From a virus, in the IMG/VR virus record IMGVR_UViG_3300045988_152007, positions 1 through 60,474 of that record: a stretch of DNA of 60,474 bases; one strand, given 5' to 3'. This document shows positions 1-60,474 of this stretch, piece after piece. Position numbers and translations under genes: made by a program. Every line of letters starts with the position of its first letter. The stretch's first letter is position 1. The notes beneath the pieces were generated by a model. It was not told the DNA's origin. It saw only the letters and a list, made by a program, of their open reading frames with translations, and did no database searches.

Positions 1-910
1 AATTAAGAAGAACACCAGTCGGAACAGTATCAAATTCAAGCGTTTTGTAGGCCTCATTATCCCAAACAAATGCAGAGTCTAAACCAGGGTCACGTCCCGC
101 AACCTCACCAATAGTGCCATAGACTAAAACATAATTTACACCATTATTTGTAATACCAATTGACGTTGCTTTTTGATTATTCGTTGTAAAAGGAATATTG
201 GTTGTTATTAATGTCAGTGAAGCTTCATCAACTGGTGCATTATTTTTAATTTTCCATGTTTCTTTACCAATTAATGACATAGAAGTTATTGAGTCTATTG
301 AAGGAATTAGTCTAATTTTATTTTTCTTTTTGTATTTAAACTCATTACTTACTACTTTGAATTTAACGTTTGGATGTTCAGCCAAAGTAATATAAGTAAA
401 ATTACTATTTGCAGAATCTATTTCTACAGTTAAAATAGTCCCTTCAAAATTATGTAATGCAAACTATTTAGTAAAATTATTAATTTTATTATTTATTTTA
501 TAATTTAAATATATTTGTTCATCAACAGTTAATGGACTTATATATTTTGATGTAGTAGTTTCATCACCATTAGGGATAGAAATTGTAAGACCATTTTCAT
601 TGAAATGAGTTATCTTATTTTTTATTTGAGCTTCATTCTAAAATAAAATGCTCCATGTATTAAATTTTTTTTGTTCTTCAGTAAGAACTTCTTCATTATT
701 TATTAAAGCAATTAATGCTAATTTTTCTGCTTGAGTAAAATAATGTTGTTCTATTAAACTAGTTCGTACTGCTGCTTCATCTTTGGTTATTTCAGAGGTA
801 GGAGGAACTATAATACATACTTCTCCTTTAGAAGGAGTGTAATTAGCTCCAATAGTTTCCCAAACAGCAGAGTTTTTAGCTTTAGTATTTACAACAATAT
901 ATCTATTCAT
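1..910 (-). CDS. putative virion/host-interaction protein; N-terminus at 910, runs off window start; in-frame TAG at 638-640 and ~457-459
   Basis: ATG 908-910 with GGAGG upstream. ORF 638..910 ends in TAG and the same frame stays open to position 1 if TAG is sense. Confidence 0.55.
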
Positions 911-1047
911 ATATTCACTCCTCCGTTTTATCTTTTTATACTTCTTCTAATAATAAAAAGATGAGTAAGTTCATTATTAGAACTTACCCATCTTTTCCAA
1001 AGAAACACCAAACAAACAAAAGGAGGATGACAATATTAGAATCTTAG

Positions 1048-1121
1048 TGGACCAGGATAGGAGAATTGAACTCCCAACAGATGATTGGAAATCACCAGTT
1101 TTACCATTAAACTAATCCTGG
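1048..1121 (-). tRNA. tRNA-Gly(TCC)
   Basis: Cloverleaf by hand: acceptor CCAGGAT/ATCCTGG, D-loop AATGGTA, anticodon loop TTTCCAA, T-loop TTCAATT, CCA encoded. Confidence 0.8.
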
Positions 1122-1139
1122 ATATTATTTTATAATTCG

Positions 1140-1540
1140 CAGCATATCGGATGAGGCACTCGCCGTCCGAGTCTTCTACTAAGGGCATATGACCTCCTGT
1201 TCGATGTAATTTTTTTACCTATACTATATGCCACTAATACAATTGGTCCTTTTGTATTTTAATACCAGTGGCGGAATTTAAACCGCACATTAAGAATAAA
1301 CAATAGTATGGTAGCTATGACCCGGTTTCATGGTCGCTTTACAGGATGGCAGTCAAAAGTTGTTACCATTCGCCTAAAATCTCCATCCAAACCTCAAATG
1401 AGGAAAACATCTAAGCCGTATCATTCGGATTTCCCGACTCATTTCGACTTGCGGATTTGTTACCTACCGCCGTACTACCTGCTAACCTTTCTATGTTAGC
1501 CCCGACCCGTCTGTTCAACTGCCGTTAGCTACTATTGTTT
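1140..1540. ncRNA. unassigned GC-rich non-coding block with several hairpins (e.g. GCGG-AATTTAAA-CCGC); candidate structured RNA
   Basis: GC content far above flanking coding DNA; no credible ORF; lies between two tRNA genes. Confidence 0.2.
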
Positions 1541-1594
1541 AATGGTGCCGGTGGCGGGACTCGAACCCGCATGGTGTTGCCACCGAGGGATTTT

Positions 1595-2332
1595 CTTACT
1601 ACTCTATGTCACCATAGCCACATTTTTGTGTTGTAGTCTGGAATACGTCTTTATCATATGCACGACTTGCACTTAGATAGTTGGTATATACTCTCTACAC
1701 ATTTATTTGGAACAATTTTTTCCACGATAAGAAGATGTTTTTGCATGACAATTTGGGCATAATAATTGGAAATTATCTAATTCATTATTAAAATGATTTC
1801 CATCTTTATGATGAAGTTCTAAAGGAATTGGTTCTCCTAACCATTCGGTTAATCCACAACATTCACATTTGTACTCTTTATAACCTTCATCAAGAAGTTT
1901 TTTTCTTACTTTATTACTCTGTATATCAATACTTTTTTCTAAGTATTCTAACAAAGATAATTCATGTCCATTGGGTTTTGACAATCCTTTACAACCTTGA
2001 TTTCCAGCATATTCAAGACCAAGCTTTTTTAATACTGGATTAATTGTTTTAGGATTACAACCCAATTCTCTTGCCATTTGAGCTTTAGTTTTACCTTCAG
2101 TAATCCATTGCTCAATTTCTTCTTTGCGTTCTAAAATATCAGTTCTCATTTATATTACCTCTCTTTCATTATTACTTAAAAATTAAAAAAGGTATTTTAA
2201 TGAGTGTCGTCCAATTTTTTAGAATGTGTTCCAAAACTTAGCACGGCGTTCTCTTAGCCATTCACCGTTTTAGCCAACTTCTGCTCTAAGAGTTTCCTCT
2301 TAGGCACTCCATTTTAACGTTTGCTAAGTCAA
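1595..2332 (-). mobile_element. group I intron (738 nt) in tRNA-Leu anticodon loop, carrying an HNH homing endonuclease
   Basis: 5' exon ends in U and the intron ends in G; P7-like CAGACTA near the 3' end; ORF 1703..2149 lies inside. Confidence 0.65.
1703..2149 (-). CDS. HNH homing endonuclease (intron-encoded), N-terminal HTH
   Basis: ORF track 148 aa; motifs CECCG...ELHHKDGNHFNN...CPNCH. Confidence 0.8.
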   Translation of the reverse strand: MRTDILERKEEIEQWITEGKTKAQMARELGCNPKTINPVLKKLGLEYAGNQGCKGLSKPNGHELSLLEYLEKSIDIQSNKVRKKLLDEGYKEYKCECCGLTEWLGEPIPLELHHKDGNHFNNELDNFQLLCPNCHAKTSSYRGKNCSK

Positions 2333-2465
2333 AAGTCCCTTGTGTCTACCATTCCACCACACCGGCAAATAAACTATATTAATTAAATCAAGACTCAATT
2401 TTGAAAAATAGCAATTCATTTTAGGTGAACTTTCAAAAGTAAATTTGCTGCGTGAGCCTTACGCC

Positions 2466-2540
2466 TGGCACCGGCTCTCAGAGTCGAACTGAGACTTGCT
2501 GATTTAGAGTCAGCTGAGCTAACCGTTACCCAAAGCCGGA
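2466..2540 (-). tRNA. amber suppressor tRNA, anticodon CUA (reads UAG); U1:U72 mismatch and G73 resemble tRNA-Gln identity
   Basis: Acceptor TCCGGCT/AGCCGGT, D-stem with G-U pairs, anticodon stem GCTGA/TCAGC, loop CTCTAAA, T-arm CTCAG-TTCGACT-CTGAG, G73, CCA encoded. Confidence 0.7.
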
Positions 2541-4633: not shown

Positions 4634-4708
4634 TGGCACTGGTGGCTGGATTTGAACCAACGAATACAGGAGTCAAAGTCCTGTGCCTTACCGCTTGGCG
4701 ACACCAGT
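4634..4708 (-). tRNA. tRNA-Gln(TTG)
   Basis: Acceptor ACTGGTG/CACCAGT, D-arm GCCAAGCGGTAAGGC as in E. coli tRNA-Gln, loop CTTTGAC, G73, CCA. Confidence 0.8.
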
Positions 4709-6191: not shown

Positions 6192-6839
6192 TTAAGCATA
6201 TTTCCATTTAAACTTAGCAGCTGTATTTCGTTTACATTTGCATACTTCAGAAATATGTTGTTTTATAGTAGTCATTTTACAATTAGTTAATTTATTTTCT
6301 ACCATAAATTTAGCTGCTTCAGTTGTTGATGGAAAAGTCCTTAAATAATTATCATTTAAATCATACATATTAATTATTTTCCCATACTTATTTTGAACTA
6401 TTTTAGCATTAGGAATAATATCAATTTTATATAATTTTAAAATTTTAGAAACTGAATCTTCACTAATATTTAATTGTTTAGCAGTATCTACAATACATTG
6501 TAAATTCTTATATGTTTCGCATACTAAATCATAGTCAATATATTGTTTGCCATCTCCGCCAATTGTAGCGTTATATCCATATTTAAAAGAACCTAATTTT
6601 TCAATCCAATAAACTTCTTTATCATTAAGTTCTTCTAATGGACATTCCTCTAACTCTTTAATAGAAAAATTTTCTGAACCATATTTATTCATTGCGTCAT
6701 ATAAAGGACGTTTTTCACATCTAGGTTTTTTATAATCTTTAAGATGTTCTTTCCAACGTTCCTAAATATTATTTTTTACTGTTTTACCAACATAAATTTT
6801 TCCATTAATATTATTTGTTATCTAATAAATGTATGCCAT
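6192..6839 (-). CDS. GIY-YIG homing endonuclease (I-TevI-like) with two in-frame TAG
   Basis: N-terminus MAYIYQITNNINGKIYVGKT...ERW matches the I-TevI GIYQI...KVYVGS...KRW motif; a TAG sits at the conserved Q (6822-6824). Confidence 0.8.
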
Positions 6840-7031: not shown

Positions 7032-7060
7032 ATTATATAAAATTTTTTTTAAATTTTCAA
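7032..7060 (-). promoter_or_regulatory. sigma70-type promoter TTGAAA-N17-TATAAT (minus strand)
   Basis: Motif family member. Confidence 0.6.
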
Positions 7061-7932
7061 ATTATACAACATAAATAATGTGCTAATTCTAATTGATATT
7101 CTTGCTTAAAGAAAAAAGGAACTATTGAAAAAATTATAGTGAATACATCATTTCGACCGCTTAATTTAAAGCTGTTATAAAATAATGGTAAATATTTTTC
7201 ACATATTTCATTATAAGTAATTTGATCATTCTTATAATGAAAATTCTTTAAAGGATCATCACTTTTTAATGTTTTACATTTTAAAATATCTTTTGAAGTT
7301 ACTTCTTCATATAAAGTTATTTTAGCAAATCCATTATAATGTTTATATAAATATGGACAAATAATCGGGCAAGGGTCATTGCATAAAAGTTCAAATCTAT
7401 TTCTTACTTCTATTGGAATTGATTCTAAAAACTTAAAATCTTTTATTTGTCTTCGAGGTAAAACAATTTTATCATATTTATTTAAAAGAGACAAATAATC
7501 TGTATTTTTATTTGAAGCTATTATACTTCTTTTAATTTTAAATTTAGGATATTTATTTCTTATATATTCTTCTAAAATAGAGGAAGAAACTAAAATTGAA
7601 TTATTTTCATTTTCACATAAGGAAACGATTTTATTACAATATCTATCATACAAGTCTTCTTTTGTTAATAATGGATTTGTTAAGGTTAAAGCAATTTCTA
7701 TATTATTTCCATAATAAAAATCAATAATTTCTTTTATTTTTTCTAATGAAGGTTGATAGCCTTGATTGACAGTTCCTCCATTCCAAATCATATTTGGGAA
7801 TGTATCGAATATACTCTCTATAGCTACATTAAAATTGAAACATTCTGGAGCTGTCTATTGTAATTCTAAAAGAGTTTTATATATATTAAATCCAGTATAA
7901 AATCCTGGACAATTTAAATTTATTTTTTTCAT
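7057..7932 (-). CDS. hypothetical protein, paralog family A (NIWNGG / FYxG motif), one in-frame TAG
   Basis: ORF 7057..7791 extends upstream through a TAG to ATG ~7932 (MKKINLNCPGFYTGF...). Confidence 0.55.
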
Positions 7933-8269
7933 ATTTAAATTATATAATATTTTTTACTTTTTATCAAATATAAAATTTTGAATAATTTGTATTCTCCATT
8001 TTTTGAATTAACTAATTTTGATATTTTGTGTTAGTAGGAGCATTTAAATAAAAATTTTTTATTTCTGAAATTTTATTTAAAAGTTCATTTCTTTTTACTA
8101 TAAAATCAAAATTACTGTAATTATTAAAATTATTTTTTATATCTAAAATATATGGTTTATACATTCCTAGCTATAAACTTTGTTTATAACTTTTTGTTTT
8201 ATAATATTCAATTATTATTATTAGATCAATAAAAGATTTATAAATTAATTTATAATAATTTTTTAATTT

Positions 8270-8710: not shown

Positions 8711-8712
8711 AG

Positions 8713-10249: not shown

Positions 10250-10250
10250 T

Positions 10251-11099: not shown

Positions 11100-11102
11100 T
11101 TT

Positions 11103-12641: not shown

Positions 12642-12721
12642 CTTTTTTAATTCATGATTAAAAATAAAATTCTAAAATAGAATATTTTCTTCCTATTGGA
12701 AATCAATAGACGTTGTTATCA

Positions 12722-48582: not shown

Positions 48583-48595
48583 TGAAGTTCCCTCC

Positions 48596-49595: not shown

Positions 49596-49599
49596 CTCC

Positions 49600-49845: not shown

Positions 49846-49847
49846 AC

Positions 49848-50762: not shown

Positions 50763-50841
50763 ATCTCTCCCATCCTTTCTATATATATTATATCAAATTT
50801 TTTATAAATTTTCGAGTATTCAATTTTGGCAAGAATTTAAA

Positions 50842-52506
50842 CTAAACATAATCATCAGGATAAGTCGCCTTTAGCCGCATCTTGGCATCAGCAATTCTTT
50901 CAAGGGACAGAAATGGCTCCCATACCTTTTTATCTGCCTTGTCAACATCAATATACTGAAAATCGCCCCACAAGTCTGGCTCCTTCGGTGCATCACCAAA
51001 ATCATAATCTTCATAACAATCATCACAGACATCAATGGGATTTCCAACATCACGACGATGCTTACCATTAGGAGTTTTTACTTCAAACATATAGGGAAGA
51101 GCCTGCTTCTTGAAATCATAATCAAGCCATTTAGTTTCTCCGCAACAGCTACAAGTCTGAGTGCGGCCATCTGCACACCAGCTACAATAAGTTGCACCGT
51201 CCCCTTCACAGAACCAAGCATCTTCACTATCAATCCAAGAGCCACAATCATCACACTGGACTTTGCCTTCACAGGTTGCACATACGACTTTATCACATTC
51301 TACAAATGCATCTACATTTCCACTCGGATCAGCTTCATAGCCTTTACCGCAGCACATACATTCAGCTACACCAGAATAGTAAACTTCTACTTCTTTTACT
51401 TCTGGATTGATATAAGCATAATGATTATCATAATAATCATTATACATAGCTCCAGTTCTCATGCGGATATAAACCTGACCAAAATCAGTATCATTGCTCT
51501 GATTCTGCCAAACCTCATACATCTTATCGTCGTAATGCCAGCCCATATTCTGTTCAGCTAACTGCTTAATTTTATTCAGCACATAATCACGCAGATAAAT
51601 ATTGTTATAAGGATACTGCTTAATTTCAGTGATAATATCCTTATTAACAATATAAAGACACCGCCAACGCTTATTACTCCAAGTTCTTTTGTCACGGTCA
51701 ATAGGACAATAAGGATGCTCGGATTCAACATATGCTTCAAGGATGACAGGAGAATTCATCATTTCAACAGTGCCAAGACGATAATCACCGCCCTGATACC
51801 AGTTCATACAACTCTCCCAATCACAAGCATTATCACTCATAGTAAGATAATCAAGCGGATGAATAGAGAGTACAATATCAGCATTAATCATACGATCATT
51901 CAAAACACGCGAATGAAGAATACGAAACTGCTCAAATGCTTCTTTATCCAGCTCAAACCAATCGACAATTTTAGCCATCATTCGCATCAGCTTCATATCA
52001 CTCTTCAACTCAAGCGGCTTCGAAGTATCTGCATGCGGACCACGGCGAATAACAACAGATTTGCGACCCCAATCAAACATATATACATTTTTATTGGCTA
52101 CGAGAGATTCACTATCAAGGCAATGGTCAATCATGCTACAACAATTAACACGTTCATCTTTATCAAGAGTGGTATCCATCCAAGAATAATAAATATTAGT
52201 AATTTGCTCGTAAGAATCAATGAATTTTTTGACGTTTGCTAATTCAGGATTATTATAAATTTCTTCATACATTTCACCGAATTTATCCATCAAATCATCT
52301 CCAGATGCCTGATAGGAAATATGGTCTTCGACCATCAAATTATTACCAAGCAACTCATACAGGTCAGGCTTTTCAGCAGCCCAAAACCGCAGAAGATGAT
52401 TAATTTCATCTACAGTGCAGTAATTATCAGAATGAAGGTACTCTTTAATATAATCATGCAGCAGATTCTTTTCTTCTTCTGGAATGAGTGTCCTCAAATC
52501 TGTCAT
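50842..52506 (-). CDS. paralog family B protein (554 aa)
   Basis: ORF track; SIHPLDYLTMSDNACDWESCMNW motif plus C-terminal CxxC repeats. Confidence 0.7.
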   Translation of the reverse strand: MTDLRTLIPEEEKNLLHDYIKEYLHSDNYCTVDEINHLLRFWAAEKPDLYELLGNNLMVEDHISYQASGDDLMDKFGEMYEEIYNNPELANVKKFIDSYEQITNIYYSWMDTTLDKDERVNCCSMIDHCLDSESLVANKNVYMFDWGRKSVVIRRGPHADTSKPLELKSDMKLMRMMAKIVDWFELDKEAFEQFRILHSRVLNDRMINADIVLSIHPLDYLTMSDNACDWESCMNWYQGGDYRLGTVEMMNSPVILEAYVESEHPYCPIDRDKRTWSNKRWRCLYIVNKDIITEIKQYPYNNIYLRDYVLNKIKQLAEQNMGWHYDDKMYEVWQNQSNDTDFGQVYIRMRTGAMYNDYYDNHYAYINPEVKEVEVYYSGVAECMCCGKGYEADPSGNVDAFVECDKVVCATCEGKVQCDDCGSWIDSEDAWFCEGDGATYCSWCADGRTQTCSCCGETKWLDYDFKKQALPYMFEVKTPNGKHRRDVGNPIDVCDDCYEDYDFGDAPKEPDLWGDFQYIDVDKADKKVWEPFLSLERIADAKMRLKATYPDDYV

Positions 52507-52571
52507 TTTAATTCACCTTTTCCCTTTAATTTATATATATATTTTATAATATTTTTTTATAAAAATAAAAT

Positions 52572-52593
52572 AAGGAGCCTTTAACAAGGCTCC
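52572..52593 (-). terminator. hairpin AGGAGCC-TTTAACAA-GGCTCCT
   Basis: Seen directly; downstream end of gene ..53504. Confidence 0.45.
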
Positions 52594-53504
52594 TATAAAA
52601 GTAAATCATCTATTGTTAAATCTTTATATTTCGTATATGGTATTCTAATTAATGGAATATTATTATCTCTACACCATTGAGTTTTTATATTGTCTCTATA
52701 TTGCATATCATCTATTGACTCTCCCCAATTTTTTGTAGGAGCATCTATAGAATGCTATATTCCATCATATTCAATTAAATATTTATTATCAATAAAAAAA
52801 TCAAATCTTAATTTTTTATTAGTTTTAGGATTAATACAATCATCAAAACTCTTTTCTCTTACATAAGGGATATGATATTCTTCTAATATCTATTGTATTT
52901 TTAATTCTCCATGAGATATTTTTAAACATCCACAAGATTGAGTGTCACCGCTACTTAAATGACTTCCTCTCACTGAAACTATATTACCACAATCACATTG
53001 ACAAATCCAATATTTAATTTTAGGAATTGATTTTTCTGTATCTAATTTTATAACAGTTAATAATCCAAACCTTTTACCTACTAAATTAACAGTAGATGTT
53101 TCAGAAGTTCTTTCTTTCTAATAGCATCCGCAAGATTTAGTATGACCTGTATTTAAATGATTTGTATTTACTATCACTTTATTACCACATTTACATTGAC
53201 ATTCCCATAAGGCACTATTAGGCATACGTCGTAAAACAGTTAAATATCCATAAACTTTTCCAGTTAAATCTTCAGATTGATTAGCCTCTCTTGTTTTTTC
53301 TCTTTGTAAACAACCACAAGACTATGTAGGTTTAGCTCTATTTAAAGAAGCACTTGATATATCAAGTTCATTACCGCAATCGCATTTACAATGCCATAGA
53401 ATACGATTATAACTATTTTTTTTACCCGTATCATATTCTACTAACAATCTACCAAATCTTTTTCCAGTTAAATCTTTCTTTGCTGGCATATAAAAATCCT
53501 CCAT
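52581..53504 (-). CDS. free-standing endonuclease-like protein: three W.C.C.CGN...SCGC zinc-binding modules plus a C-terminal Vsr/DUF559-like EYDG.QH domain; in-frame TAGs; 3' end uncertain
   Basis: ORF 53322..53504 ends in TAG and the frame continues; repeats were hand-translated. Confidence 0.45.
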
Positions 53505-53556
53505 AGTTAAAAAGTAAAATTATCTTCTACACTTTTTAACTATGGAGATAAATTAA

Positions 53557-55173
53557 TTAATTAGTCTTACCCGGAAAATTATTCATCATAAGCATCGGCA
53601 GAAGCCAATCTTTATCACCATCAGCCTTATCCGACATAAGATAGAGCATCATAGGATTAAAACCGGTCATACCATTTGCACCATTCATAAGCAGCATCAT
53701 AGGAAGAATATCTTTCATGGACTTATTATTGTCATCAAGAAGAGTAAACATCCACATATTGCCCAGAGGGTTGTCTTTAGAAGGAGGAGCCATCATATTA
53801 TCAAAAAGGCTTACAATTTTAGTAATAAAACTAAAATTACCAAAAGGAGACTTTGTAGGCATAATAGTCTTCTTTTCACCCATTGCAATATCAATTGCAA
53901 TTACATCACCCTGCTCGGAGAAACCAAAGACAAAACACGGACGTCTGTTGAAAATAATCACATCACCAGCTTCAATGGCGTCAATGCCAACAGGCATCTT
54001 GAAGAACATATTATCAGCCTTAAAGTTGAAAATATCAACATCCATAATCTCGCCATTCTTCTTATCATAAGCCTGATATGTGCCATTAACATTCTTAACC
54101 GCCAGACCATACGGCGACATACGAACAGCATCATTATCCTTAATCGGACCAAAATCAAAATTAAACATCTTCATATTATTTCCTTTACCTTTCACATCAT
54201 CATTGTTTGTTTCAAGTTTATTAATTCTTTCTTCCATTGTATCAATACGGCTAGTTAAACTATCACAGATTGAAACAGTAGCTGTAGTATATGGATTATA
54301 AGTAATACCAGAATCACCATTAACTTCAATAGTTTTCCCTATAACACTTTCGCCAGTAATAGAACTAGCTGTAGAAGCGGTTGGACGATATCCCCAATCT
54401 ATACTAACAGACGCAGTAGAAGCTGTTTCATCTTTAATATCCAATTTAGCTGGATCAATAGGGCTAACATTAATAGTTGCCGTATCAGAAAATGTGGTAT
54501 TTTTTACTTTATCTACATTTTCATATACTTTATTAAGCCATTCAGTATTTTCGTTAATTTTATTATAACAATTATTAAGAATCTCAGTAGTCTTATTAAA
54601 TTCGCAATTGAGCTTCTTTATATCTTTTTTTACATCATTAAAAATCGCTTGACCAGTTGTACCCTCCACCGCGGGATTAAGTGCCCAATTAATAGCACGC
54701 CAACCGATGCCGTCCTCTGAACTATAAGCTCCTAAATTAGTTAAGCCAAATAGCCTATAATCATCTACCTTTTCATCAGCTTCTACCCAATCAAAATAAT
54801 CATAGAACAACATATCGGCCAAATATGTACCAAATGAATAATCATCTTCAGAAGTATTATACTTCTTATCAGTACCTACCATTCTAAAATTATCTGAATC
54901 TTTTAAATACTTAAATTCCTGAATATGGACTATAGTAGGAGCAAGACAGGTATTATTAATCTCAAACCATACTACCTTATAGTCTCCATCCATTAAATGG
55001 AGAACTTTCCAATCAGTATAAAGCAGTTTATTATAAGCTCCGGCTTTAACATTTTTGTTAAAATCATCTAGTAACTTTTCCCAGGCTTCTTTATTATAAA
55101 CTTTGGCATCATAGACTGGACTATAAGTTCTTTTCTTGTCCATCGGCCATATGTCTTTTAAATAAGCTTTCAT
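53557..55173 (-). CDS. hypothetical protein (538 aa) with a Met-rich C-terminus
   Basis: ORF track. Confidence 0.65.
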   Translation of the reverse strand: MKAYLKDIWPMDKKRTYSPVYDAKVYNKEAWEKLLDDFNKNVKAGAYNKLLYTDWKVLHLMDGDYKVVWFEINNTCLAPTIVHIQEFKYLKDSDNFRMVGTDKKYNTSEDDYSFGTYLADMLFYDYFDWVEADEKVDDYRLFGLTNLGAYSSEDGIGWRAINWALNPAVEGTTGQAIFNDVKKDIKKLNCEFNKTTEILNNCYNKINENTEWLNKVYENVDKVKNTTFSDTATINVSPIDPAKLDIKDETASTASVSIDWGYRPTASTASSITGESVIGKTIEVNGDSGITYNPYTTATVSICDSLTSRIDTMEERINKLETNNDDVKGKGNNMKMFNFDFGPIKDNDAVRMSPYGLAVKNVNGTYQAYDKKNGEIMDVDIFNFKADNMFFKMPVGIDAIEAGDVIIFNRRPCFVFGFSEQGDVIAIDIAMGEKKTIMPTKSPFGNFSFITKIVSLFDNMMAPPSKDNPLGNMWMFTLLDDNNKSMKDILPMMLLMNGANGMTGFNPMMLYLMSDKADGDKDWLLPMLMMNNFPGKTN

Positions 55174-55394
55174 CCTCGACTATACATCTCCCATACCATA
55201 TCTTCTTCGGCAGGTGTGATATCCTCAATCCCGCACTCTTCACACATAATATTAAAATTTTCCTCAACATACCATCGAGGATTTTCTTGCATCTTACGTA
55301 CCAGAGTATTAATACATCCAGTACGAGTGTTTACCATTCCAGTACCCTCTGCTTCATTCATGAACAGAAAATAACTATCATCAAAACCAAACAT
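55170..55394 (-). CDS. hypothetical protein (74 aa)
   Basis: ORF track. Confidence 0.5.
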   Translation of the reverse strand: MFGFDDSYFLFMNEAEGTGMVNTRTGCINTLVRKMQENPRWYVEENFNIMCEECGIEDITPAEEDMVWEMYSRG

Positions 55395-55422
55395 ATTAAT
55401 TACTCCTTATCTTTATATATAA

Positions 55423-55451
55423 ATTATATAATATTTTTTTATTTTTTTCAA
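55423..55451 (-). promoter_or_regulatory. sigma70-type promoter TTGAAA-N17-TATAAT (minus strand)
   Basis: Motif family member. Confidence 0.6.
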
Positions 55452-55453
55452 AT

Positions 55454-56047
55454 TTACAAACAAGAAATAGAACCTTCCGGGGTAGTCAATTGTGCAGTTG
55501 CAGTATAATTATATTTAACAAGTTCAACAATACCATCCTCATTAACTACACACTTATAAATATGTTTAAGTTCAGCATCATTTTCAACCGTTTGCTTAAT
55601 AAGCTGGGCACTACTAATTGCCGCCTTACAAATTGCCTCTTGGCTTTCTTCTTTGAGTGTCTGACAATCTGCTTTCATAAGGTCACAAAATTCAAGACCC
55701 TTAAGCAGTTCTGCTTCCTGCATTGCTTTAGTTCTTTTATTTTCCCACCATTGGATAAATTTACGGTATTCCTTATAAGAACTAAAATACACATAAAATT
55801 TACTTTCACCAACAATATTTTTTTTACCAATTTTATAAGAAATGCTAGTATCACTAATACACCATTTATCAGGCTTAATAGCAGAGTATTTCATTACTTC
55901 ATCAAAGGTAAGCTCAACAGTTTTATCATGCCATCCAATGGCTTCCTTTTTAAAACGCTGATAATCTTCCCAATTCTTAAAATAGCTAAATACTATAAAA
56001 CAGATAATAGCAAATACAATAAAAATACCTAAAATAATTAAAAACAT
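55454..56047 (-). CDS. membrane-anchored hypothetical protein (197 aa)
   Basis: ORF track; N-terminal transmembrane helix. Confidence 0.6.
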   Translation of the reverse strand: MFLIILGIFIVFAIICFIVFSYFKNWEDYQRFKKEAIGWHDKTVELTFDEVMKYSAIKPDKWCISDTSISYKIGKKNIVGESKFYVYFSSYKEYRKFIQWWENKRTKAMQEAELLKGLEFCDLMKADCQTLKEESQEAICKAAISSAQLIKQTVENDAELKHIYKCVVNEDGIVELVKYNYTATAQLTTPEGSISCL

Positions 56048-56592
56048 TACTTATTATCCTCCTTCTTCTGTCGCAGATCATGGTCTTCGCCATCATAAAT
56101 TTCACGATATTTAGTAAACAGAGAGCCATCATTATAATAATATCTAATACTATTCCAACCATTATAATGATCAGTCAAATCAGGCCAATCTACAATACGT
56201 GCCTGCCGTTCAAGCTCCTGCTGCGGCACAACTCTATGTCTCTTGGAGTTCCATTCCTTTGAATTTTCTACACTAGCGATAATAACCATAAGCTGGTAGT
56301 TATCAAAATGAGGAAAACGGCTTCTGATTTCTTCTCTCTGTCCAAGAGTCAAACAATTAGTATCAATGATAATATCTGCCTTATCCATCTCTGCACAATG
56401 TACAATCTGATATAATGTCTGCCAAACTTCGAACTTATGACAGCGGTTGCATTCATCACCATTGAAGACAGCATACAATTCATCAGGGTTTACATACCGG
56501 ATGTGATTCATCTTTGCGAAGGATTTCGCGAATGTAGTCTTTCCATTTGCACTCAAGCCGCACATCATATATAGAGTCGCCATCAACTTCAT
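56047..56592 (-). CDS. P-loop NTPase, polynucleotide-kinase/zeta-toxin-like
   Basis: ORF track 181 aa; Walker A GLSANGKTT. Confidence 0.6.
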   Translation of the reverse strand: MKLMATLYMMCGLSANGKTTFAKSFAKMNHIRYVNPDELYAVFNGDECNRCHKFEVWQTLYQIVHCAEMDKADIIIDTNCLTLGQREEIRSRFPHFDNYQLMVIIASVENSKEWNSKRHRVVPQQELERQARIVDWPDLTDHYNGWNSIRYYYNDGSLFTKYREIYDGEDHDLRQKKEDNK

Positions 56593-56911
56593 CTCCTCTC
56601 AGTCTGCTTGCCAATATATATTCTATATAGATAGAATCTACTGTTGGATTTTCTATTTTTTCTATACTAATTACATCTTCTTCAGTAGTAATTACAATAT
56701 AAAAATCATCAAAGCATTTAATTAATGCTTTATACCATTTATGACCATGCCAACACCAATAGTCTTCAAGAATAACTTGACCTGATTTAAGCAGAACATG
56801 GTATTTATGTAATGTGTCTTCTTTTTTAATACGACCCATTAAATAATCCATTTGATTAAATACAAAAGGATTGCCTGGACCAGACATTACCTTGCTCATG
56901 TCAAATTCCAA
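56483..56911 (-). CDS. hypothetical protein (142 aa); 3' part overlaps the next gene by ~110 nt
   Basis: ORF track. Confidence 0.4.
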   Translation of the reverse strand: MEFDMSKVMSGPGNPFVFNQMDYLMGRIKKEDTLHKYHVLLKSGQVILEDYWCWHGHKWYKALIKCFDDFYIVITTEEDVISIEKIENPTVDSIYIEYILASRLRGDEVDGDSIYDVRLECKWKDYIREILRKDESHPVCKP

Positions 56912-57177
56912 TTACTCAATTCAATCCTCTCATTATAACTTTTCTTGTCAGAAATCGGCTCACAAAAAATAACTATTCCATTACGCATCCAATCTGCATA
57001 AACCATATCATCCCAAAGGATTATACGCAAACGATAATAATTCCCATTCTCTTCACTCTGTAAATCAATAGCAATCTTACCATATTTAAGAGCATTAGAA
57101 TGCTTTTCATTAACCATATGTTGATAAACTTCTTCAGCATATGCATCAAATATATCCATCCAATTATCCAACTTCAC
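56896..57177 (-). CDS. hypothetical protein (93 aa)
   Basis: ORF track. Confidence 0.5.
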   Translation of the reverse strand: MKLDNWMDIFDAYAEEVYQHMVNEKHSNALKYGKIAIDLQSEENGNYYRLRIILWDDMVYADWMRNGIVIFCEPISDKKSYNERIELSNWNLT

Positions 57178-57874
57178 TACACCTCGTCAAATAAGTAATT
57201 TTCTGCTTCTGGTAAGTTCCAAGAGACTTAATAGTTCCCTTAATAGTAAGTTCCTTACCAATTTCCCAATTCTTGGCGGCTGTACTCCAGCAGTACAGAT
57301 TCTCATTGGCATCAATAAACGTCATAATATGATTAACACCATAGTAATTTTCTGCTTCAATGTTTTTAATTACTTTTACATCACGTTCAATCTTATCGCC
57401 AACTTCACCCTGATAACGACTATTGCCTTCATCATAAATAAGATTTTCAACTACCTTATTAATAACAGCATTATCTTTCAGAGTGCCGTCGTCATTACCT
57501 ACGAGTTCCCAAGGCAGCTGCACGGGCGTAATACCTTCCGGCACATCGGCAGGAACTTCTTCGGTAGAAACAACATACCACTTGAACGTAGTGTGGAAAC
57601 GGGCATTAGAATGTTCAAACCATTCAAGATTTTCATAAGTATTACCTTTAAACAGGGTAATATATCCATTATCAAAACCAAGAATATGCTTACGATTACC
57701 AGGTTTAATAATTTTTACAGGAGGATAATAGCGGTCATACTCTGACTGGGTGTAGCTCTTGACCTTCTTGACCTTGCCATCCTTGGTCCGCACATCACAA
57801 TAACGCTTGCCATTTTCAATATAAGTATCACGGACAATTTCCAAATCCTGATAAGATTTAGCAACAAGAGCCAT
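57164..57874 (-). CDS. hypothetical protein (236 aa)
   Basis: ORF track. Confidence 0.6.
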   Translation of the reverse strand: MALVAKSYQDLEIVRDTYIENGKRYCDVRTKDGKVKKVKSYTQSEYDRYYPPVKIIKPGNRKHILGFDNGYITLFKGNTYENLEWFEHSNARFHTTFKWYVVSTEEVPADVPEGITPVQLPWELVGNDDGTLKDNAVINKVVENLIYDEGNSRYQGEVGDKIERDVKVIKNIEAENYYGVNHIMTFIDANENLYCWSTAAKNWEIGKELTIKGTIKSLGTYQKQKITYLTRCSEVG

Positions 57875-58068
57875 TATCTGTCACCCTCCTCAAAAAGCTG
57901 CTTATAAAGAATATCAAGAGCCATGTCAATTTCTTCCGCTTCAGCATTGTCAATATACTCATAATTACTTACACAGAGATCAACGACCTTATTATAAGCA
58001 TTGACAACTTCTTCGTTTCTAATCTTGTCCATAGTATCGTCTCCTTTAAAATTCTTTATATCTCTCAT
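57874..58068 (-). CDS. small acidic hypothetical protein (64 aa)
   Basis: ORF track. Confidence 0.45.
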   Translation of the reverse strand: MRDIKNFKGDDTMDKIRNEEVVNAYNKVVDLCVSNYEYIDNAEAEEIDMALDILYKQLFEEGDR

Positions 58069-58111
58069 TTCTTTATATATATATTTTATAATATTTTTTT
58101 ATAAAAATAAA

Positions 58112-58138
58112 AGAGGAGTCTCTTATCAAGACTCCTCT
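58112..58138 (-). terminator. hairpin AGAGGAGTC-TCTTATCAAG-ACTCCTCT
   Basis: Seen directly; overlaps the 3' end of gene 58126..58536. Confidence 0.45.
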
Positions 58139-58536
58139 GTATAATCAATCAATTCAATTTCTGACCAAAATGGCTGCTCATACCAACTTGTCCAAGGATT
58201 ACTCCTATAGAACTGATGAATACGCACTTTTTCATTGAATTCTTTTACTTGAGTATAATACAATTCATTTACACCAACTCTTGAAGTTTCAAGGAAACTA
58301 TCATGGTGTTCTATCTGATAAACAATAACATCTCGTTCGGCTTCTACATTAGCACGGTCAATAGATGCAGTTGCTCTGTGGCATATAAAAGCAATTGTAC
58401 TAAATAATACTACAAGAGCAAGTATAAAGCCAATAGTAAATGGAAGAGCAGCCCAATCACTAAAATTATCACTCAAACATTTTGCAATGATAAAACAAAT
58501 TACGCCGATAACAATAGCCAACAAATACAATAACAT
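58126..58536 (-). CDS. membrane protein (136 aa)
   Basis: ORF track; two hydrophobic helices. Confidence 0.55.
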   Translation of the reverse strand: MLLYLLAIVIGVICFIIAKCLSDNFSDWAALPFTIGFILALVVLFSTIAFICHRATASIDRANVEAERDVIVYQIEHHDSFLETSRVGVNELYYTQVKEFNEKVRIHQFYRSNPWTSWYEQPFWSEIELIDYTEES

Positions 58537-58538
58537 AA

Positions 58539-58841
58539 TTATTCCTCCATTGTTCTGTAACCTTCAACATCTACATCAGCCATATCACTAATGTCGAAAT
58601 CATCATCATCTTCTGAAACATTATAGTCTGCCTTGGCGGCATCAATAAAATCTCCAATAGATGCACCATACCAATCCCAATTGTCAACGCCACCACAGTC
58701 TAATGCTTGAAGTCGCAAACTATCATAGAGCAAATCTTTTAGTTCATCTTTTGGAACAAGGCAATAAATCATATTAATACTTGGTTCCTTTCTTATAGTT
58801 ATAGAAATACAATCCACCAAGGACGACAATAGCAATAACAA
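58539..58841 (-). CDS. acidic hypothetical protein (100 aa)
   Basis: ORF track. Confidence 0.5.
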   Translation of the reverse strand: MLLLLSSLVDCISITIRKEPSINMIYCLVPKDELKDLLYDSLRLQALDCGGVDNWDWYGASIGDFIDAAKADYNVSEDDDDFDISDMADVDVEGYRTMEE

Positions 58842-58861
58842 GAATAATTACGGGGTCCATA

Positions 58862-60019
58862 TTAGTTCTCCTTTTTAAAATCAAAAATTGTTTTTAATTC
58901 TTCTACTTTATCAAGCTGTTCCCAAGGGCTATTACATTCAATACGACCAAAATGACCGAAGCAAGCATAGGGTAAATAGCGAGTATGTTTTAAATCAAAT
59001 TTATGAATAATACTACGCGGTGCAAAATCAAATGTCTGATTAACTGCTTCAAGAATTTCAGCGATAGGTTTCTTTTCTGTACCAAAACAATTAATATTAA
59101 TAGATACAGGTTCTGTCTGCCCAATAATATAAGCAACTTGAATCATACATTTATTACAAACACCAGAAGCTACAAGATTTTTAGCTACATAACGTGCCAT
59201 ATAAGCACCAGACCTATCTACTTTACAGGGCGACTTCCCTGAAAAACATCCCCCACCATGTGGAGCATAACCACCATATGTATCTACGACGATTTTACGT
59301 CCGGTTAATCCAATGTCAGCCGCAGGTCCACCAATTACGAATCTGCCTGTTGGGTTAATATAAAATTTACAATCTTTCTTAATGGCATAACCTTGAAGGG
59401 CAATATTACAAATGTTTGTAATATCGGGTGTTATTTCCTTAATACTATATTTGTCTTTGTGTTGGGCCGATACGACAATTGTATCTACCCCTTCAAAGTT
59501 GCCATCATCATCGTATTGGACAGTTATCTGACATTTGCCGTCAGGTAATGCCCAAGGTAGCAAATCATTTTTATACTTACTAAACATAATGACCGAGATA
59601 TTGTTAGCAAGTTGCTGGGCAATAGGCATATAATTTTCTGTTTCGTTAGTTGCATAACCAAACATCATGCCTTGATCTCCAGCACCATCCCTATCGACAC
59701 CCGCAGCGATGTCAGGGGATTGATTTACTACATTAATAATATATGAACAAGTGTCGCAGTTAAATCCTGCTTCATCATTGTCATAACCAATAAATCTTAA
59801 AGTCTCTCTTGCAATTTCCTGATAAGGAATAGATTGTTCTGTTTTAGCTGTAATCTCTCCCATGATGTGGAAAAGACCTGGACTAATAGTACATTCACAA
59901 GCTACTCGTGCATCAGGGTCAAGCTGGAGGACATAATCCAGAATAGCATCACTTACCTAATCACAAACCTTATCAGGGTGACCGGCAAAAACGCTCTCAC
60001 TGGTAAATAAATAACTCAT
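58862..60019 (-). CDS. metK: S-adenosylmethionine synthetase (MetK), 385 aa, with an in-frame TAG at 59957-59959 at the conserved Gln
   Basis: ORF 58862..59863 carries GAGDQGMMFGYA, GGPAADIGLTGRKIVVDTYGG and GGGCFSGK.P.KVDRSGAY; the upstream frame through the TAG gives [28 protein letters not shown], the MetK N-terminus; GGAGG precedes ATG 60017-60019. Confidence 0.8.
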
Positions 60020-60047
60020 ATAATATTTCCTCCTTTATTATATAAAT

Positions 60048-60076
60048 ATTATATAATATTATTTTTTATTTTTCAA
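60048..60076 (-). promoter_or_regulatory. sigma70-type promoter TTGAAA-N17-TATAAT (minus strand) upstream of metK
   Basis: Motif family member. Confidence 0.6.
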
Positions 60077-60446
60077 TTTTTTCTGCCGATACTAAATAAC
60101 AATATTTATCAACATACTCTTGCTCACTCATATCTGATGGTTTATGAATAAATGCTAAATAATGTTTCAGCCGATCAATAGCTTTATCTACATTAAAATC
60201 TTCAGTAGCAAGATAACTTTCTGTTTCAGTATTACCTTGATAGTCGGCAACGATAATATTCCAGTATTCTTTTTTTCTGTTTTGATTTACTTTTTCTTTA
60301 GTATAATAGCAATGCTCTAAATAATTAACCATTGCCGCAGAATTATCATACTTATGTCCAAAAAAATTTTCAGCAATATCCAATAGAATACGATTAATAA
60401 ATGATTGAGTTATGGTATCTTTATCTATAAAAACTTCTTTTACCAT
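60066..60446 (-). CDS. hypothetical protein (126 aa)
   Basis: ORF track. Confidence 0.55.
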   Translation of the reverse strand: MVKEVFIDKDTITQSFINRILLDIAENFFGHKYDNSAAMVNYLEHCYYTKEKVNQNRKKEYWNIIVADYQGNTETESYLATEDFNVDKAIDRLKHYLAFIHKPSDMSEQEYVDKYCYLVSAEKIEK

Positions 60447-60474
60447 TTCATCTTTTGGTGTATAGAAGTTTAAA

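What the first reader, a model, noticed from the sequence alone, without database searches (positions are those of the whole stretch)
1..60474. Genome-wide amber (TAG) stop-codon reassignment, most likely to glutamine
More than 25 minus-strand genes are split by the ORF finder exactly at TAG codons, and the frames stay open across them. Several TAGs sit at residues that are conserved in known families. In MetK the TAG at 59957 falls on the Q of the PDK..DQ.SD motif. In three GIY-YIG endonucleases the TAG falls on the Q of the I-TevI GIYQI motif (e.g. 6822). In the repeat protein 24741..27326 the same GADTVEGSVAKTVKDA repeat occurs on both sides of the TAG at 25545. Gene 21898..22890 has three in-frame TAGs and still runs cleanly from an RBS/ATG to a TAA. 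Gene ends that can be followed all resolve at TAA or TGA.
Basis: partly seen in the sequence, partly recalled or inferred. Interest (0 to 1): 0.85.

Follow-up and report, generated by a model that had tools for sequence, protein, structure and literature searches.

The report
Phage reads amber stop as glutamine
This 60-kb piece of an uncultured phage genome uses the TAG "stop" codon as a glutamine codon and carries its own suppressor tRNA to read it, which is a real but already well-documented habit of gut phages.

Summary
All genes lie on the minus strand. 35 of 61 ORFs carry 125 in-frame TAGs, and every ORF ends in TAA (48) or TGA (12). The coding frame continues across 115 of 126 TAGs but across only 11 of 60 true stops. 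Third-codon-position variation among relatives is just as strong downstream of TAGs as upstream.

Glutamine is well supported:
- The MetK TAG aligns with the Q of HPDKxxDQxSD.
- Four TAGs in two radical-SAM families fall on columns that are 97-99% Q.
- Summed log-odds over 17 TAG columns give Q +30.9 bits; the runner-up is E at -2.1.
- TAG<->CAG/CAA is the commonest exchange among related phages.

A suppressor tRNA(CUA) sits at 2466-2540, and it is the only suppressor in the window.

"Genome-wide" needs qualifying. TAG makes up 35% of Gln codons in 1-40.6 kb but 7% in 40.6-60.5 kb. That fits the published model of genes compatible with the standard code alongside genes gated by the suppressor.

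This is genetic code 15, known from crAss-like, Lak and other gut phages, so it is a new member of a known kind.

The more unusual things are side observations. HDV-like ribozyme plus GIY-YIG cassettes sit at tRNA 3' ends, and tRNA genes are split by endonuclease ORFs.

The parts
2466..2540 (-). Suppressor tRNA with anticodon CUA, which reads UAG. Cloverleaf with a U1.U72 mismatch, G73 and an encoded CCA.
   Evidence: Found by ARAGORN and by Rfam tRNA at 49.2 bits. It is identical in relative L001/L018 and differs by 1 nt in L019. It is the only suppressor in the window. The ARAGORN 'tRNA-Stop(tta)' calls are artefacts of intron placement.
4634..4708 (-). Ordinary phage tRNA-Gln(UUG) for CAA/CAG. 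It also has G73 and an encoded CCA.
58862..60019 (-). S-adenosylmethionine synthetase (MetK), with a single TAG at codon 21 (59959-59957).
   Evidence: The PDB search gives E=1.7e-114 to MetK structures, and the TAG aligns with the Q of HPDKIADQISD. The TAG is conserved in relatives L003-L005.
12722..14155 (-). Radical SAM enzyme of 477 aa with 10 in-frame TAGs.
   Evidence: 81 homologs were aligned over about 95% of the length. TAGs at residues 138, 344 and 419 fall on columns with Q in 78, 77 and 77 of the 79 homologs below 55% identity.
38904..40244 (-). Radical SAM peptide maturase of the CXXX-repeat target family, with 7 in-frame TAGs.
   Evidence: TIGR04115 scores 424 bits (cut-off 350) and matches profile positions 3-359 of 359 across the TAGs. 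The TAG at residue 37 falls on a column with Q in 56 of 58 homologs.
17699..30185 (-). Tail-fibre-like gene block with 32 in-frame TAGs: 17699-20173, 20442-20882, 20896-21882, 21898-22890, 23036-23911, 24693-27326, 27350-28570, 28593-29108, 29112-30185.
   Evidence: Gene and TAG lists are. The TAG at 25547 is CAA/CAG in relatives L008 and L010. The TAG at codon 35 of 29112-30185 is Q in four distant loci (L012-L015) whose ORFs look unbroken under the standard code. The TAG at codon 354 is Q, T or K in relatives, and their proteins continue past it.
6192..6839 (-). GIY-YIG homing endonuclease with a TAG at codon 6. Paralogs at 31140-31769 and 32385-33053 have a TAG in the same motif.
   Evidence: It matches the I-TevI catalytic domain at E=3.3e-10, with the TAG opposite the Q of IYQI. 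The position is C, K or V in the nearest relatives. The gene is absent from relative L001.
7057..16450 (-). Very AT-rich cluster (GC 17-25% in most genes) of radical SAM, glycosyltransferase and unknown genes, with 46 in-frame TAGs.
44380..58772 (-). TAG-poor block of 20 ORFs and about 4360 codons. It has 7 TAGs, of which 5 are in the mobile-looking gene 52581-53504. It holds accessory genes: HslV-like peptidase, metallophosphatase, RlaP-like nucleotidyltransferase and polynucleotide-kinase-like ATPase.
   Evidence: Counts are: Fisher p=1.6e-12 against 1-40.6 kb, and p=4.8e-7 for GC-matched genes.
35099..35662 (-). HNH endonuclease-like ORF with 5 in-frame TAGs, directly upstream of tRNA-Lys.

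Best explanation
The window is part of the genome of an uncultured tailed phage. Its relatives sit on contigs of 105-158 kb. The phage uses genetic code 15: UAG is translated as glutamine, and only UAA and UGA terminate.

The agent is a phage-encoded amber-suppressor tRNA(CUA) at 2466-2540, which a host aminoacyl-tRNA pathway presumably charges with Gln.

TAG supplies about a third of all Gln codons in these gene groups:
- the tail-fibre genes;
- two radical-SAM / peptide-modification clusters;
- the homing-endonuclease genes.

TAG is almost absent from a 14-kb block of accessory genes that can be translated with the host's standard code. Genes containing TAG, including MetK, which has one TAG at a conserved Gln early in the protein, can therefore be made full length only once the suppressor tRNA is present.

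Shown here: TAG is sense, it corresponds to Gln, the suppressor tRNA exists, and TAG use is strongly uneven.

Inferred: the suppressor is charged with Gln by a host enzyme, the host uses the standard code, and the uneven use works as a temporal (early versus late) gate.
For: - 125 in-frame TAGs lie in 35 of 61 ORFs, and stops are 48 TAA, 12 TGA and 0 TAG.
- The same reading frame scores best on both sides of 115 of 126 TAGs, against 11 of 60 real stops.
- Among relatives, variable sites downstream of the first TAG fall 277/184/817 on codon positions 1/2/3. Upstream the split is 122/97/402.
- Homologs align end to end across the TAGs, and TIGR04115 matches full length.
- Gln: the MetK TAG aligns with the Q of DQxSD.
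- Gln: four TAG columns are 97-99% Q in homologs of 30-60% identity. Summed log-odds over 17 columns are Q +30.9, E -2.1 and K -9.2 bits.
- In relatives of 90% identity or more, TAG pairs with TAG 187 times, with Q 10 times and with anything else 3 times. At 60-90% identity it pairs with Q 16 times, and the next commonest is K at 5. Specific sites are listed.
- Counting TAG as Gln brings Gln content to 33 per 1000 codons in 1-40.6 kb, against 27 in the rest. Without TAG it would be about 21.
- The suppressor tRNA(CUA) is documented. Its acceptor stem (U1.U72, G73) recurs in an otherwise unrelated suppressor tRNA of another phage, L024.
- Uneven use: TAG versus CAA+CAG is 113:210 against 12:154, p=1.6e-12, and p=4.8e-7 for GC-matched genes.
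- The pattern matches published descriptions of code-15 phages: bioRxiv 10.1101/2021.08.26.457843, PMC9523058 and PMC10607447.
Against: - There is no protein-level evidence.
- Many TAG columns are variable in homologs (E, K, N or D commonest), so each such site alone says little.
- The GIY motif position is C or K in the nearest relatives.
- The suppressor tRNA lacks the G2-C71 and G3-C70 pairs that E. coli GlnRS uses; it has C2-G71 and C3-G70. Its isotype could not be scored.
- The host is unknown and the hints conflict. The closest named relative of the CXXX maturase is a Bacteroides sp. protein. A relative of this phage carries an S-layer-homology domain protein, and I associate that domain with Bacillota from prior knowledge.
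- The "early" nature of the TAG-poor block rests only on gene content and position.
- The suppressor tRNA lies at the far downstream end of the gene array rather than in front of the recoded genes.
- No release-factor or tRNA-synthetase gene was seen, but only 60 kb of a genome of more than 100 kb was examined.
Confidence: 0.9

Rival explanations
1. TAG is sense but stands for another amino acid, such as glutamate, lysine or pyrrolysine, or for a mixture.
For: ARAGORN labels any CUA anticodon 'Pyl'. In several variable columns E, K or N is commoner than Q. A paralog has K and I-TevI has E opposite two TAGs.
Against: Four near-invariant Q columns plus the MetK Q. Log-odds are Q +30.9 against E -2.1 and K -9.2 bits. 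TAG<->CAG/CAA dominates the exchanges among relatives. The tRNA is an ordinary cloverleaf with an 8-nt D-loop, not the compact pylT shape. No Pyl genes turned up among the ORFs scanned.
Confidence: 0.04
2. The uneven TAG distribution is a footprint of mosaic ancestry or mutational history, not a regulatory device. Blocks acquired from, or long resident in, standard-code phages simply have not yet accumulated TAGs.
For: The TAG-rich clusters have a very different base composition (GC 14-25%) from the TAG-poor block (31-47%). Mobile genes are TAG-rich wherever they sit, for example 52581-53504 inside the TAG-poor block. CAG, not CAA, is the main Gln codon in the TAG-poor block: 62 CAG against 43 CAA, compared with 30 against 180 elsewhere. 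That suggests a different codon-usage history.
Against: The difference holds for GC-matched genes (p=4.8e-7). Within 1-40.6 kb, TAG share does not correlate significantly with GC (rho -0.29, p=0.12). The same split has evolved repeatedly in unrelated recoded phages.
Confidence: 0.3
3. The phage simply matches a host whose own code reads TAG as an amino acid, so no code switch takes place.
For: The host is unidentified.
Against: The phage carries its own suppressor tRNA. It keeps a large block free of TAG. The published recoded gut phages infect standard-code hosts. As far as I know, no bacterium with TAG reassigned to Gln has been described.
Confidence: 0.03
4. The TAGs are real stops. The genes would then be pseudogenes or assembly artefacts, or be expressed through occasional read-through.
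For: None beyond the standard code table.
Against: 66-70 TAGs are conserved in each of two relatives across the first 22 kb, and 187 TAG-TAG pairs were counted over all relatives of 90% identity or more. Third-position bias persists downstream of TAGs, the frame continues, and homologs align full length.
Confidence: 0.01

Closest known systems
Code-15 (TAG->Gln) gut phages: crAss-like phages (Crassvirales), Lak megaphages and the Garnet/Amethyst/Jade/Sapphire clades (bioRxiv 10.1101/2021.08.26.457843; PMC9523058)
   Same: In-frame TAGs at Gln positions, a phage suppressor tRNA(CUA), low GC, and TAA/TGA as the only stops. Structural genes are recoded while other modules stay compatible with the standard code. 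Only part of the genes are recoded: 57% here, against 26-71% in published clades infecting standard-code hosts. Homing-endonuclease genes are recoded.
   Different: There is no detectable nucleotide similarity to any GenBank phage. The one protein tested gave a single weak hit. Clade membership could not be tested because the window holds no terminase, portal or capsid gene. The most TAG-dense genes here are radical-SAM, glycosyltransferase and RiPP-like clusters, not a lysis cassette. No release-factor or synthetase 'code-change module' was seen in the 60 kb.
phAss-1 / proposed Phassvirus (PMC10607447)
   Same: Genome of about 136 kb, many tRNA genes, suppressor tRNA(CUA), TAG read as Gln in a minority of ORFs, no phage-encoded synthetase.
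   Different: No blastn match in the GenBank phage collection at word size 11. phAss-1 has three suppressor tRNA genes; one was found in this window.
Theta (HDV-like) ribozyme-associated tRNAs of recoded gut phages (PMC10879173)
   Same: The window has four HDV-like ribozyme motifs directly 3' of tRNAs that lack an encoded CCA.
   Different: The suppressor tRNA here has an encoded CCA and no ribozyme, whereas 85% of suppressor tRNAs in ribozyme-bearing phages have one. The ribozymes here follow Thr, Ser, Met and a Trp-like tRNA. They travel with GIY-YIG genes, which that paper does not mention.
E. coli supE (glnV) amber suppressor
   Same: It works like it: a tRNA with a CUA anticodon inserts Gln at UAG in competition with release factor 1. 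This is established knowledge.
   Different: supE is a point mutant of a cellular tRNA-Gln. The phage tRNA is only distantly similar to the phage's own tRNA-Gln and to every other tRNA collected here: at most 68% identity apart from its orthologs.

Membership tests
Genetic code 15 (TAG->Gln) recoded phage | Many ORFs with in-frame TAGs that remain coding across them | tested here: met
   125 TAGs lie in 35 of 61 ORFs. Frame continuity holds at 115 of 126 TAGs. Third-position bias persists downstream. Homologs align full length.
Genetic code 15 (TAG->Gln) recoded phage | TAG positions correspond to glutamine in homologs that use the standard code | tested here: met
   The MetK Q. Four columns are 97-99% Q, and log-odds are Q +30.9 bits against E -2.1. 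TAG<->CAG/CAA exchanges among relatives.
Genetic code 15 (TAG->Gln) recoded phage | Phage-encoded suppressor tRNA with anticodon CUA | tested here: met
   Located at 2466-2540 on the minus strand. Found by ARAGORN and by Rfam at 49.2 bits, and conserved in relatives.
Genetic code 15 (TAG->Gln) recoded phage | TAG not used as a terminator | tested here: met
   48 TAA and 12 TGA stops. TAGs are not enriched near ORF ends: 10 observed against 12 expected in the last 25 codons. Ten near-terminal TAGs remain individually ambiguous.
Genetic code 15 (TAG->Gln) recoded phage | Structural and late genes recoded while an early module stays compatible with the standard code | tested here: inconclusive
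   Tail-fibre genes are recoded and a 14-kb block is nearly TAG-free. Timing was not measured. No lysis or replication genes were identified in the window.
Genetic code 15 (TAG->Gln) recoded phage | Host uses the standard code | not testable with these tools
   The host is unknown. The hints conflict: the closest named CXXX-maturase relative is from Bacteroides sp., and a relative carries an SLH-domain protein.
Genetic code 15 (TAG->Gln) recoded phage | Gln detected at TAG positions in peptides | not testable with these tools
   This needs mass spectrometry, as in PMC9523058.
Pyrrolysine decoding of UAG | pylT-type tRNA (short D-loop, 3-nt variable loop, long anticodon stem) plus pylS/pylBCD genes, with UAG at positions not conserved as Gln | tested here: not met
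   The tRNA is an ordinary cloverleaf. TAG aligns with conserved Gln. No Pyl families appeared among the ORFs scanned, but not every ORF was scanned.
Crassvirales / Phassvirus membership | Hallmark-gene (terminase, portal, major capsid) phylogeny or genome similarity | not tested
   The window holds no hallmark genes. blastn of two 8-kb pieces and tblastn of one protein against GenBank phages found nothing or one weak hit.

The most novel reading that the evidence does not exclude
In this lineage the amber codon may gate more than virion genes. It may be a general switch for selfish and accessory modules.
- All three GIY-YIG endonucleases have a TAG within the first 6-12 codons. They ride in cassettes whose 5' part is an HDV-like ribozyme that cuts exactly at the tRNA 3' end they have invaded.
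- One of the three PD-(D/E)XK endonucleases that split tRNA genes (4150-4530), an HNH-like ORF (35099-35662) and the endonuclease-like gene 52581-53504 also carry TAGs.
- The SAM synthetase has one TAG at a conserved Gln.
- The SAM-consuming radical-SAM peptide-maturation clusters are the most TAG-dense genes of all.

If so, one suppressor tRNA would time both endonuclease mobility and SAM-dependent peptide chemistry. The 'theta' ribozymes linked to recoded phages would then be explained as parts of homing-endonuclease cassettes rather than as recoding machinery.
Probability: 0.3. Interest if true: 0.6.

Novelty: new member of a known kind. Interest (0 to 1): 0.3.

Why it matters
Reading this DNA with the standard code breaks more than half of its genes. 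It hides a SAM synthetase, a CXXX-repeat peptide-maturation system, tail fibres and several homing endonucleases, so correct annotation depends on recognising code 15.

The recoding itself has been documented since 2014 and confirmed by proteomics, so it adds a lineage rather than a principle.

Its value is as a clean, well-controlled example from a phage group with no relatives in GenBank. It is also the key that makes the neighbouring oddities readable: ribozyme-endonuclease cassettes at tRNA ends, and tRNA genes split by endonuclease ORFs with no recognisable intron ribozyme.

Tried and rejected
1. Summed ORF length under alternative codes and two-strand ORF coverage. In 31% GC DNA, freeing any stop codon lengthens ORFs on both strands, so these measures do not discriminate. 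I replaced them with frame-continuity and codon-position tests.
2. Pyrrolysine. Rejected; see the rival explanations.
3. Extra suppressors.
- ARAGORN run with introns calls two 'tRNA-Stop(tta)' genes.
- Reading the exons, and comparing with uninterrupted alleles in relatives, shows they are tRNA-Leu(UAA) and tRNA-Val(UAC) interrupted by ORF-bearing inserts.
- A tRNA-like element at 33372-33442 has a 5-nt UUUAA loop and sits next to a weak YrlA-like hit. It is not a credible ochre suppressor.
4. A theta ribozyme next to the suppressor tRNA. None was found at E<=5, and the tRNA has an encoded CCA.
5. Ancestry of the suppressor tRNA. An exact-pattern scan with a free anticodon found only two close relatives. 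Pairwise comparison with 147 other tRNAs gave no isotype signal.
6. Identifying the phage. Two 8-kb blastn searches and one tblastn search against GenBank phages found nothing useful.
7. Distant structural homologs. The alignment to CteB (5wgg) is too divergent to say anything about the TAG positions.
8. Group I intron models in the split tRNA genes. No Rfam hit at E<=5.

Full report
**What the window is.** The window is 60,474 bases at 31% GC. Every credible gene lies on the minus strand. It holds these features:
- Tail-fibre-like genes (17.7-30.2 kb).
- Two tRNA arrays (1-7 kb and 31-37 kb), interspersed with homing-endonuclease genes.
- Radical-SAM, glycosyltransferase and peptide-maturation clusters (7-16.5 kb and 37.6-40.5 kb).
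- A block of accessory genes (41-60 kb) that includes MetK.

It has no nucleotide match in the GenBank phage collection. It does have close relatives, 94-99.7% identical over the long shared stretches, on IMG/VR contigs of 105-158 kb, and more distant ones. It is therefore part of an uncultured, fairly large tailed phage.

**Check of the observation.** When only TAA and TGA are treated as stops, the minus strand resolves into 61 ORFs.
- 35 ORFs contain 125 in-frame TAGs. All ORFs end in TAA (48) or TGA (12). A further HNH-like ORF at 35099-35662 has 5 more TAGs.
- My first test, summed ORF length under different codes, did not discriminate. In AT-rich DNA, freeing any stop codon lengthens ORFs on both strands.
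- I then trained a codon-usage frame model on table-11 ORFs. It puts the same frame best on both sides of 115 of 126 TAGs, but of only 11 of 60 TAA/TGA gene ends.
- Among relatives, variable sites downstream of the first TAG of each gene fall 277/184/817 on codon positions 1/2/3. That bias is as strong as upstream, at 122/97/402. Selection on the protein therefore continues past the TAGs.
- TAGs are not concentrated near ORF ends: 10 lie in the last 25 codons, against 12 expected.
- Homologs of two radical-SAM enzymes align over about 95% of the read-through length. The curated TIGR04115 profile matches end to end across internal TAGs at 424 bits, above its 350-bit cut-off.

- The coordinates are right.
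- MetK: the TAG at 59959-59957 aligns with Q in E. coli MetK, HPDKIADQISD.
- Gene 21898-22890 has three TAGs and ends in TAA.
- Correction 1: both exact GADTVEGSVAKTVKDA copies lie downstream of the TAG at 25547-25545. Only a diverged copy lies upstream.
- Correction 2: the quoted end of that gene, 24741, is itself a TAG. The ORF runs on to the TGA at 24693, and the extra tail resembles the C-terminus of a paralog.
- Correction 3: I-TevI has Q opposite the GIY-YIG TAG. The nearest GIY-YIG relatives in viral contigs have C, K or V there, so that argument is weak.

**Which amino acid.**
- In the radical-SAM enzyme 12722-14155, three of ten TAGs fall on columns with Q in 77-78 of the 79 homologs below 55% identity. 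Q is also the commonest residue in two more columns.
- In the CXXX-repeat maturase 38904-40244, one TAG column is Q in 56 of 58 homologs. Q is the commonest residue in two more.
- Summed over all 17 columns, log-odds against background are Q +30.9 bits, E -2.1, K -9.2, and lower for everything else.
- In relatives at 90% protein identity or more, window TAGs pair with TAG 187 times. TAG pairs with Q 10 times in either direction, and with anything else 3 times. At 60-90% identity, TAG pairs with Q 16 times and the next commonest is K at 5.
- Specific cases. Window TAG codons starting at 12038, 15187 and 21309 are CAG in relative L002, and the one at 19738 is CAA. The TAG at 25547 is Q in two relatives and the TAG at 47466 is Q in one. 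Codon 35 of gene 29112-30185 is Q in four distant loci whose ORFs look unbroken under the standard code.
- Counting TAG as Gln brings the Gln content of genes in 1-40.6 kb to 33 per 1000 codons, comparable with 27 per 1000 in the rest. Without TAG it would be about 21.

Glutamine is well supported. Glutamate, lysine and pyrrolysine are not.

**Mechanism.**
- It is an ordinary cloverleaf with an unpaired U1.U72, G73, G10, A37 and an encoded CCA. From established knowledge of E. coli GlnRS, a weak 1-72 pair, G73, G10, U35 and A37 favour Gln identity.
- The G2-C71 and G3-C70 pairs are not present, so Gln charging is inferred, not shown.
- The same acceptor stem (UCCGGCU/AGCCGGU plus G73) recurs in a suppressor tRNA of another phage whose tRNA body is otherwise different (L024). 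This hints that the identity determinants lie there.
- It is the only suppressor in the window. Two ARAGORN 'tRNA-Stop(tta)' calls are artefacts of intron placement in tRNA-Leu(UAA) and tRNA-Val(UAC).
- The suppressor has no HDV-like ribozyme behind it.
- No release-factor or synthetase gene was seen, but only 60 kb was available.

**Is it genome-wide?** Not evenly.
- TAG supplies 35% of Gln codons in 1-40.6 kb (113 TAG against 210 CAA+CAG), but 7% in 40.6-60.5 kb (12 against 154). Fisher p is 1.6e-12, and for genes matched for GC (30-41%) it is 4.8e-7.
- The block 44.3-58.8 kb has 7 TAGs in about 4360 codons. Five of them are in one mobile-looking gene, 52581-53504.
- That block encodes an HslV-like peptidase, a metallophosphatase, an RlaP-type nucleotidyltransferase and a polynucleotide-kinase-like ATPase.
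- The most TAG-dense genes are the radical-SAM, glycosyltransferase and peptide-maturation clusters, most of the tail-fibre-like genes and several endonuclease genes.
- MetK has a single TAG at codon 21, on a conserved Gln.

This is the pattern described for recoded gut phages. Part of the genome is readable with the host's code, and part is readable only once the suppressor is present. The proposed role is to time late functions (bioRxiv 10.1101/2021.08.26.457843). Here the timing is an inference. An alternative is that the pattern reflects different evolutionary histories of the blocks. Their base composition and CAA/CAG preference also differ, and I cannot exclude this.

**Comparison with what is known.**
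- TAG-to-Gln recoding with phage suppressor tRNAs is established in crAss-like phages, Lak phages, several other gut-phage clades and the phAss-1 group. It has been confirmed by metaproteomics (PMC9523058; PMC10607447).
- The window meets every defining feature that could be tested: sense TAGs, Gln correspondence, tRNA(CUA), and no TAG terminators.
- Host code and peptide evidence cannot be tested here. Clade membership cannot be tested without hallmark genes.
- The finding is a new member of a known kind, from a lineage without GenBank relatives.

**Things seen in passing that may deserve more attention than the recoding.**

1. *Ribozyme-endonuclease cassettes at tRNA ends.*
- Four tRNAs lacking an encoded CCA (Thr, Ser, Met and an odd Trp-like tRNA) are followed directly by an HDV-like ('theta'-type) ribozyme motif. 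Its P1 and P2 helices covary between copies.
- Three of the four motifs are followed by a GIY-YIG gene, 25 to 52 nt after the end of the motif as drawn here.
- For all four tRNAs, close relatives carry 'empty' alleles: the tRNA, then CCA, then unrelated sequence. For the three sites with a GIY-YIG gene, ribozyme and endonuclease therefore behave as one mobile cassette inserted at the tRNA 3' end; the fourth occupied site has the ribozyme but no intact ORF.
- Among 43 distinct upstream regions of related GIY-YIG genes in IMG/VR, 22 have the ribozyme core with a perfect 6-bp P1. Where ARAGORN calls a tRNA, P1 starts 0-1 nt after its end in all but one case. The tRNAs are of at least six kinds.
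- The paper describing theta ribozymes does not mention endonucleases. No paper in the searchable library holds both topics.

2. *tRNA genes split by endonuclease ORFs.*
- tRNA-Tyr, tRNA-Pro and tRNA-Val are split in the anticodon loop by inserts of 441-480 nt that are almost entirely an I-Ssp6803I-like PD-(D/E)XK ORF.
- That leaves no room for a group I ribozyme, and there is no Rfam group I hit. Relatives have intact alleles.
- tRNA-Leu(UAA) has a 736-nt insert with an HNH ORF at the classic U34/A35 site.

3. *Other RNA elements.*
- A full-length ROOL RNA and a RAGATH-33 RNA flank the suppressor tRNA.
- A Trp-anticodon tRNA has an 8-bp acceptor stem and a long variable arm.
- Another tRNA has a 73-nt tRNA-like insert in its anticodon loop.
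- There is a possible YrlA-like RNA.

**Verdict.** The phenomenon is already known, so the finding itself rates low to moderate interest.

Noticed in passing
window 6864-6917, 31773-31827, 33105-33160, 30985-31038 (all minus strand), with GIY-YIG ORFs 6192-6839, 31140-31769, 32385-33053; loci L001, L008-L011, L020-L071: HDV-like (theta-type) ribozyme motifs sit directly 3' of tRNA-Thr, -Ser, -Met and a Trp-like tRNA, none of which has an encoded CCA. Three are followed by GIY-YIG homing-endonuclease genes 25-52 nt after the motif. Close relatives have empty alleles (tRNA + CCA + unrelated DNA) at all four sites, so ribozyme plus endonuclease looks like one mobile cassette targeted to tRNA 3' ends. 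P1 and P2 covary between copies. The tRNA-ribozyme-GIY-YIG arrangement recurs in 22 of 43 distinct IMG/VR loci behind at least six tRNA kinds. I found no report of it in the searchable literature.
   Followed up: partly
window 4102-4629 (tRNA-Tyr, insert 4153-4593), 5058-5613 (tRNA-Pro), 33936-34492 (tRNA-Val), 1543-2366 (tRNA-Leu UAA): Four tRNA genes are interrupted in the anticodon loop by ORF-bearing inserts. Three inserts of 441-480 nt consist almost entirely of an I-Ssp6803I-like PD-(D/E)XK (PDDEXK_5) ORF. In tRNA-Tyr the ORF's stop codon TAA is anticodon-loop bases 35-37. That leaves no room for a group I ribozyme, and there is no Rfam group I hit at E<=5. Intact alleles exist in relatives. 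The tRNA-Leu(UAA) insert is 736 nt with an HNH ORF at the classic U34/A35 site. Whether these tRNAs are spliced or simply inactivated is unknown.
   Followed up: partly
window 3430-4023 (-) and 1417-1529 (-): A full-length ROOL RNA (323 bits) and a RAGATH-33 RNA (139 bits) lie in the same tRNA array as the suppressor tRNA. About 890 nt between the suppressor tRNA and ROOL (2541-3430) have no credible ORF.
   Followed up: no
window 31039-31124 (-): A tRNA with anticodon CCA has an 8-bp acceptor stem, a 4-5-bp T stem, a long variable arm and a G discriminator. That shape resembles tRNA-Sec or allo-tRNA more than tRNA-Trp (Rfam tRNA-Sec 39 bits, below its cut-off). It is conserved in relatives and followed by a ribozyme. 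TGG still aligns with a conserved Trp in homologs, for example W77 of the rSAM enzyme.
   Followed up: no
window 37012-37159 (-): A tRNA gene carries a 73-nt insert in the anticodon loop, and the insert itself looks tRNA-like, resembling tRNA-Gly at 1048-1121. Depending on where the insert is placed, the anticodon reads CCA (Trp) or UCA. ARAGORN calls the L010 ortholog 'tca'.
   Followed up: partly
window 33255-33442 (-); L019 7966-9501: A weak YrlA (Y RNA-like) hit at 30.3 bits lies next to a tRNA-like element with a 5-nt anticodon loop. A close relative encodes a DUF2828/DUF7788 protein, a family I recall as related to Ro/TROVE. Together they could be a Y-RNA and Ro-like pair.
   Followed up: no
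window 38282-40244 (-) and 7057-16450 (-): A phage-borne CXXX-repeat peptide system: a TIGR04115 radical-SAM maturase next to a protein with a Cys-rich C-terminal half holding CSGS/CSGC-type repeats. A second, extremely AT-rich cluster (GC 17-25% in most genes) holds two more radical-SAM/SPASM-like enzymes, a fused rSAM-fragment/GT2 protein, a GT8-like protein and a Ser/Gly/Tyr/His-rich 171-aa protein. MetK is encoded in the same window.
   Followed up: partly
window 40929-42356, 44847-46490, 50788-52506 (-): Three large paralogs share an HPLDY[LM][ST][LM]S[ED]N motif and C-terminal CxxC zinc-ribbon repeats. They have no Pfam family; one matches phrog_18912, of unknown function.
   Followed up: no
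window 56047-56592, 47803-48582, 48780-49586 (-): A polynucleotide-kinase-like ATPase, a calcineurin-like phosphoesterase and an RlaP-type nucleotidyltransferase. This is a possible RNA end-healing set, which would suit tRNAs left with a 2',3'-cyclic phosphate and no CCA after ribozyme cleavage.
   Followed up: no
window 2466-2540 (-) and L024 1053-1126: Two suppressor tRNAs(CUA), from this phage and from a phage on another contig, share an identical acceptor stem (U1.U72, C2-G71 ... U7-A66, G73, CCA), while the rest of the tRNA differs (68% identity overall). This may mark the identity elements used for charging.
   Followed up: no
L019 5544-6677: A close relative encodes an S-layer-homology (SLH) domain protein just beyond the window's low-coordinate end. 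I associate SLH domains with Bacillota hosts, from prior knowledge. The nearest named relative of the CXXX maturase is from Bacteroides sp.. The host is unresolved.
   Followed up: no
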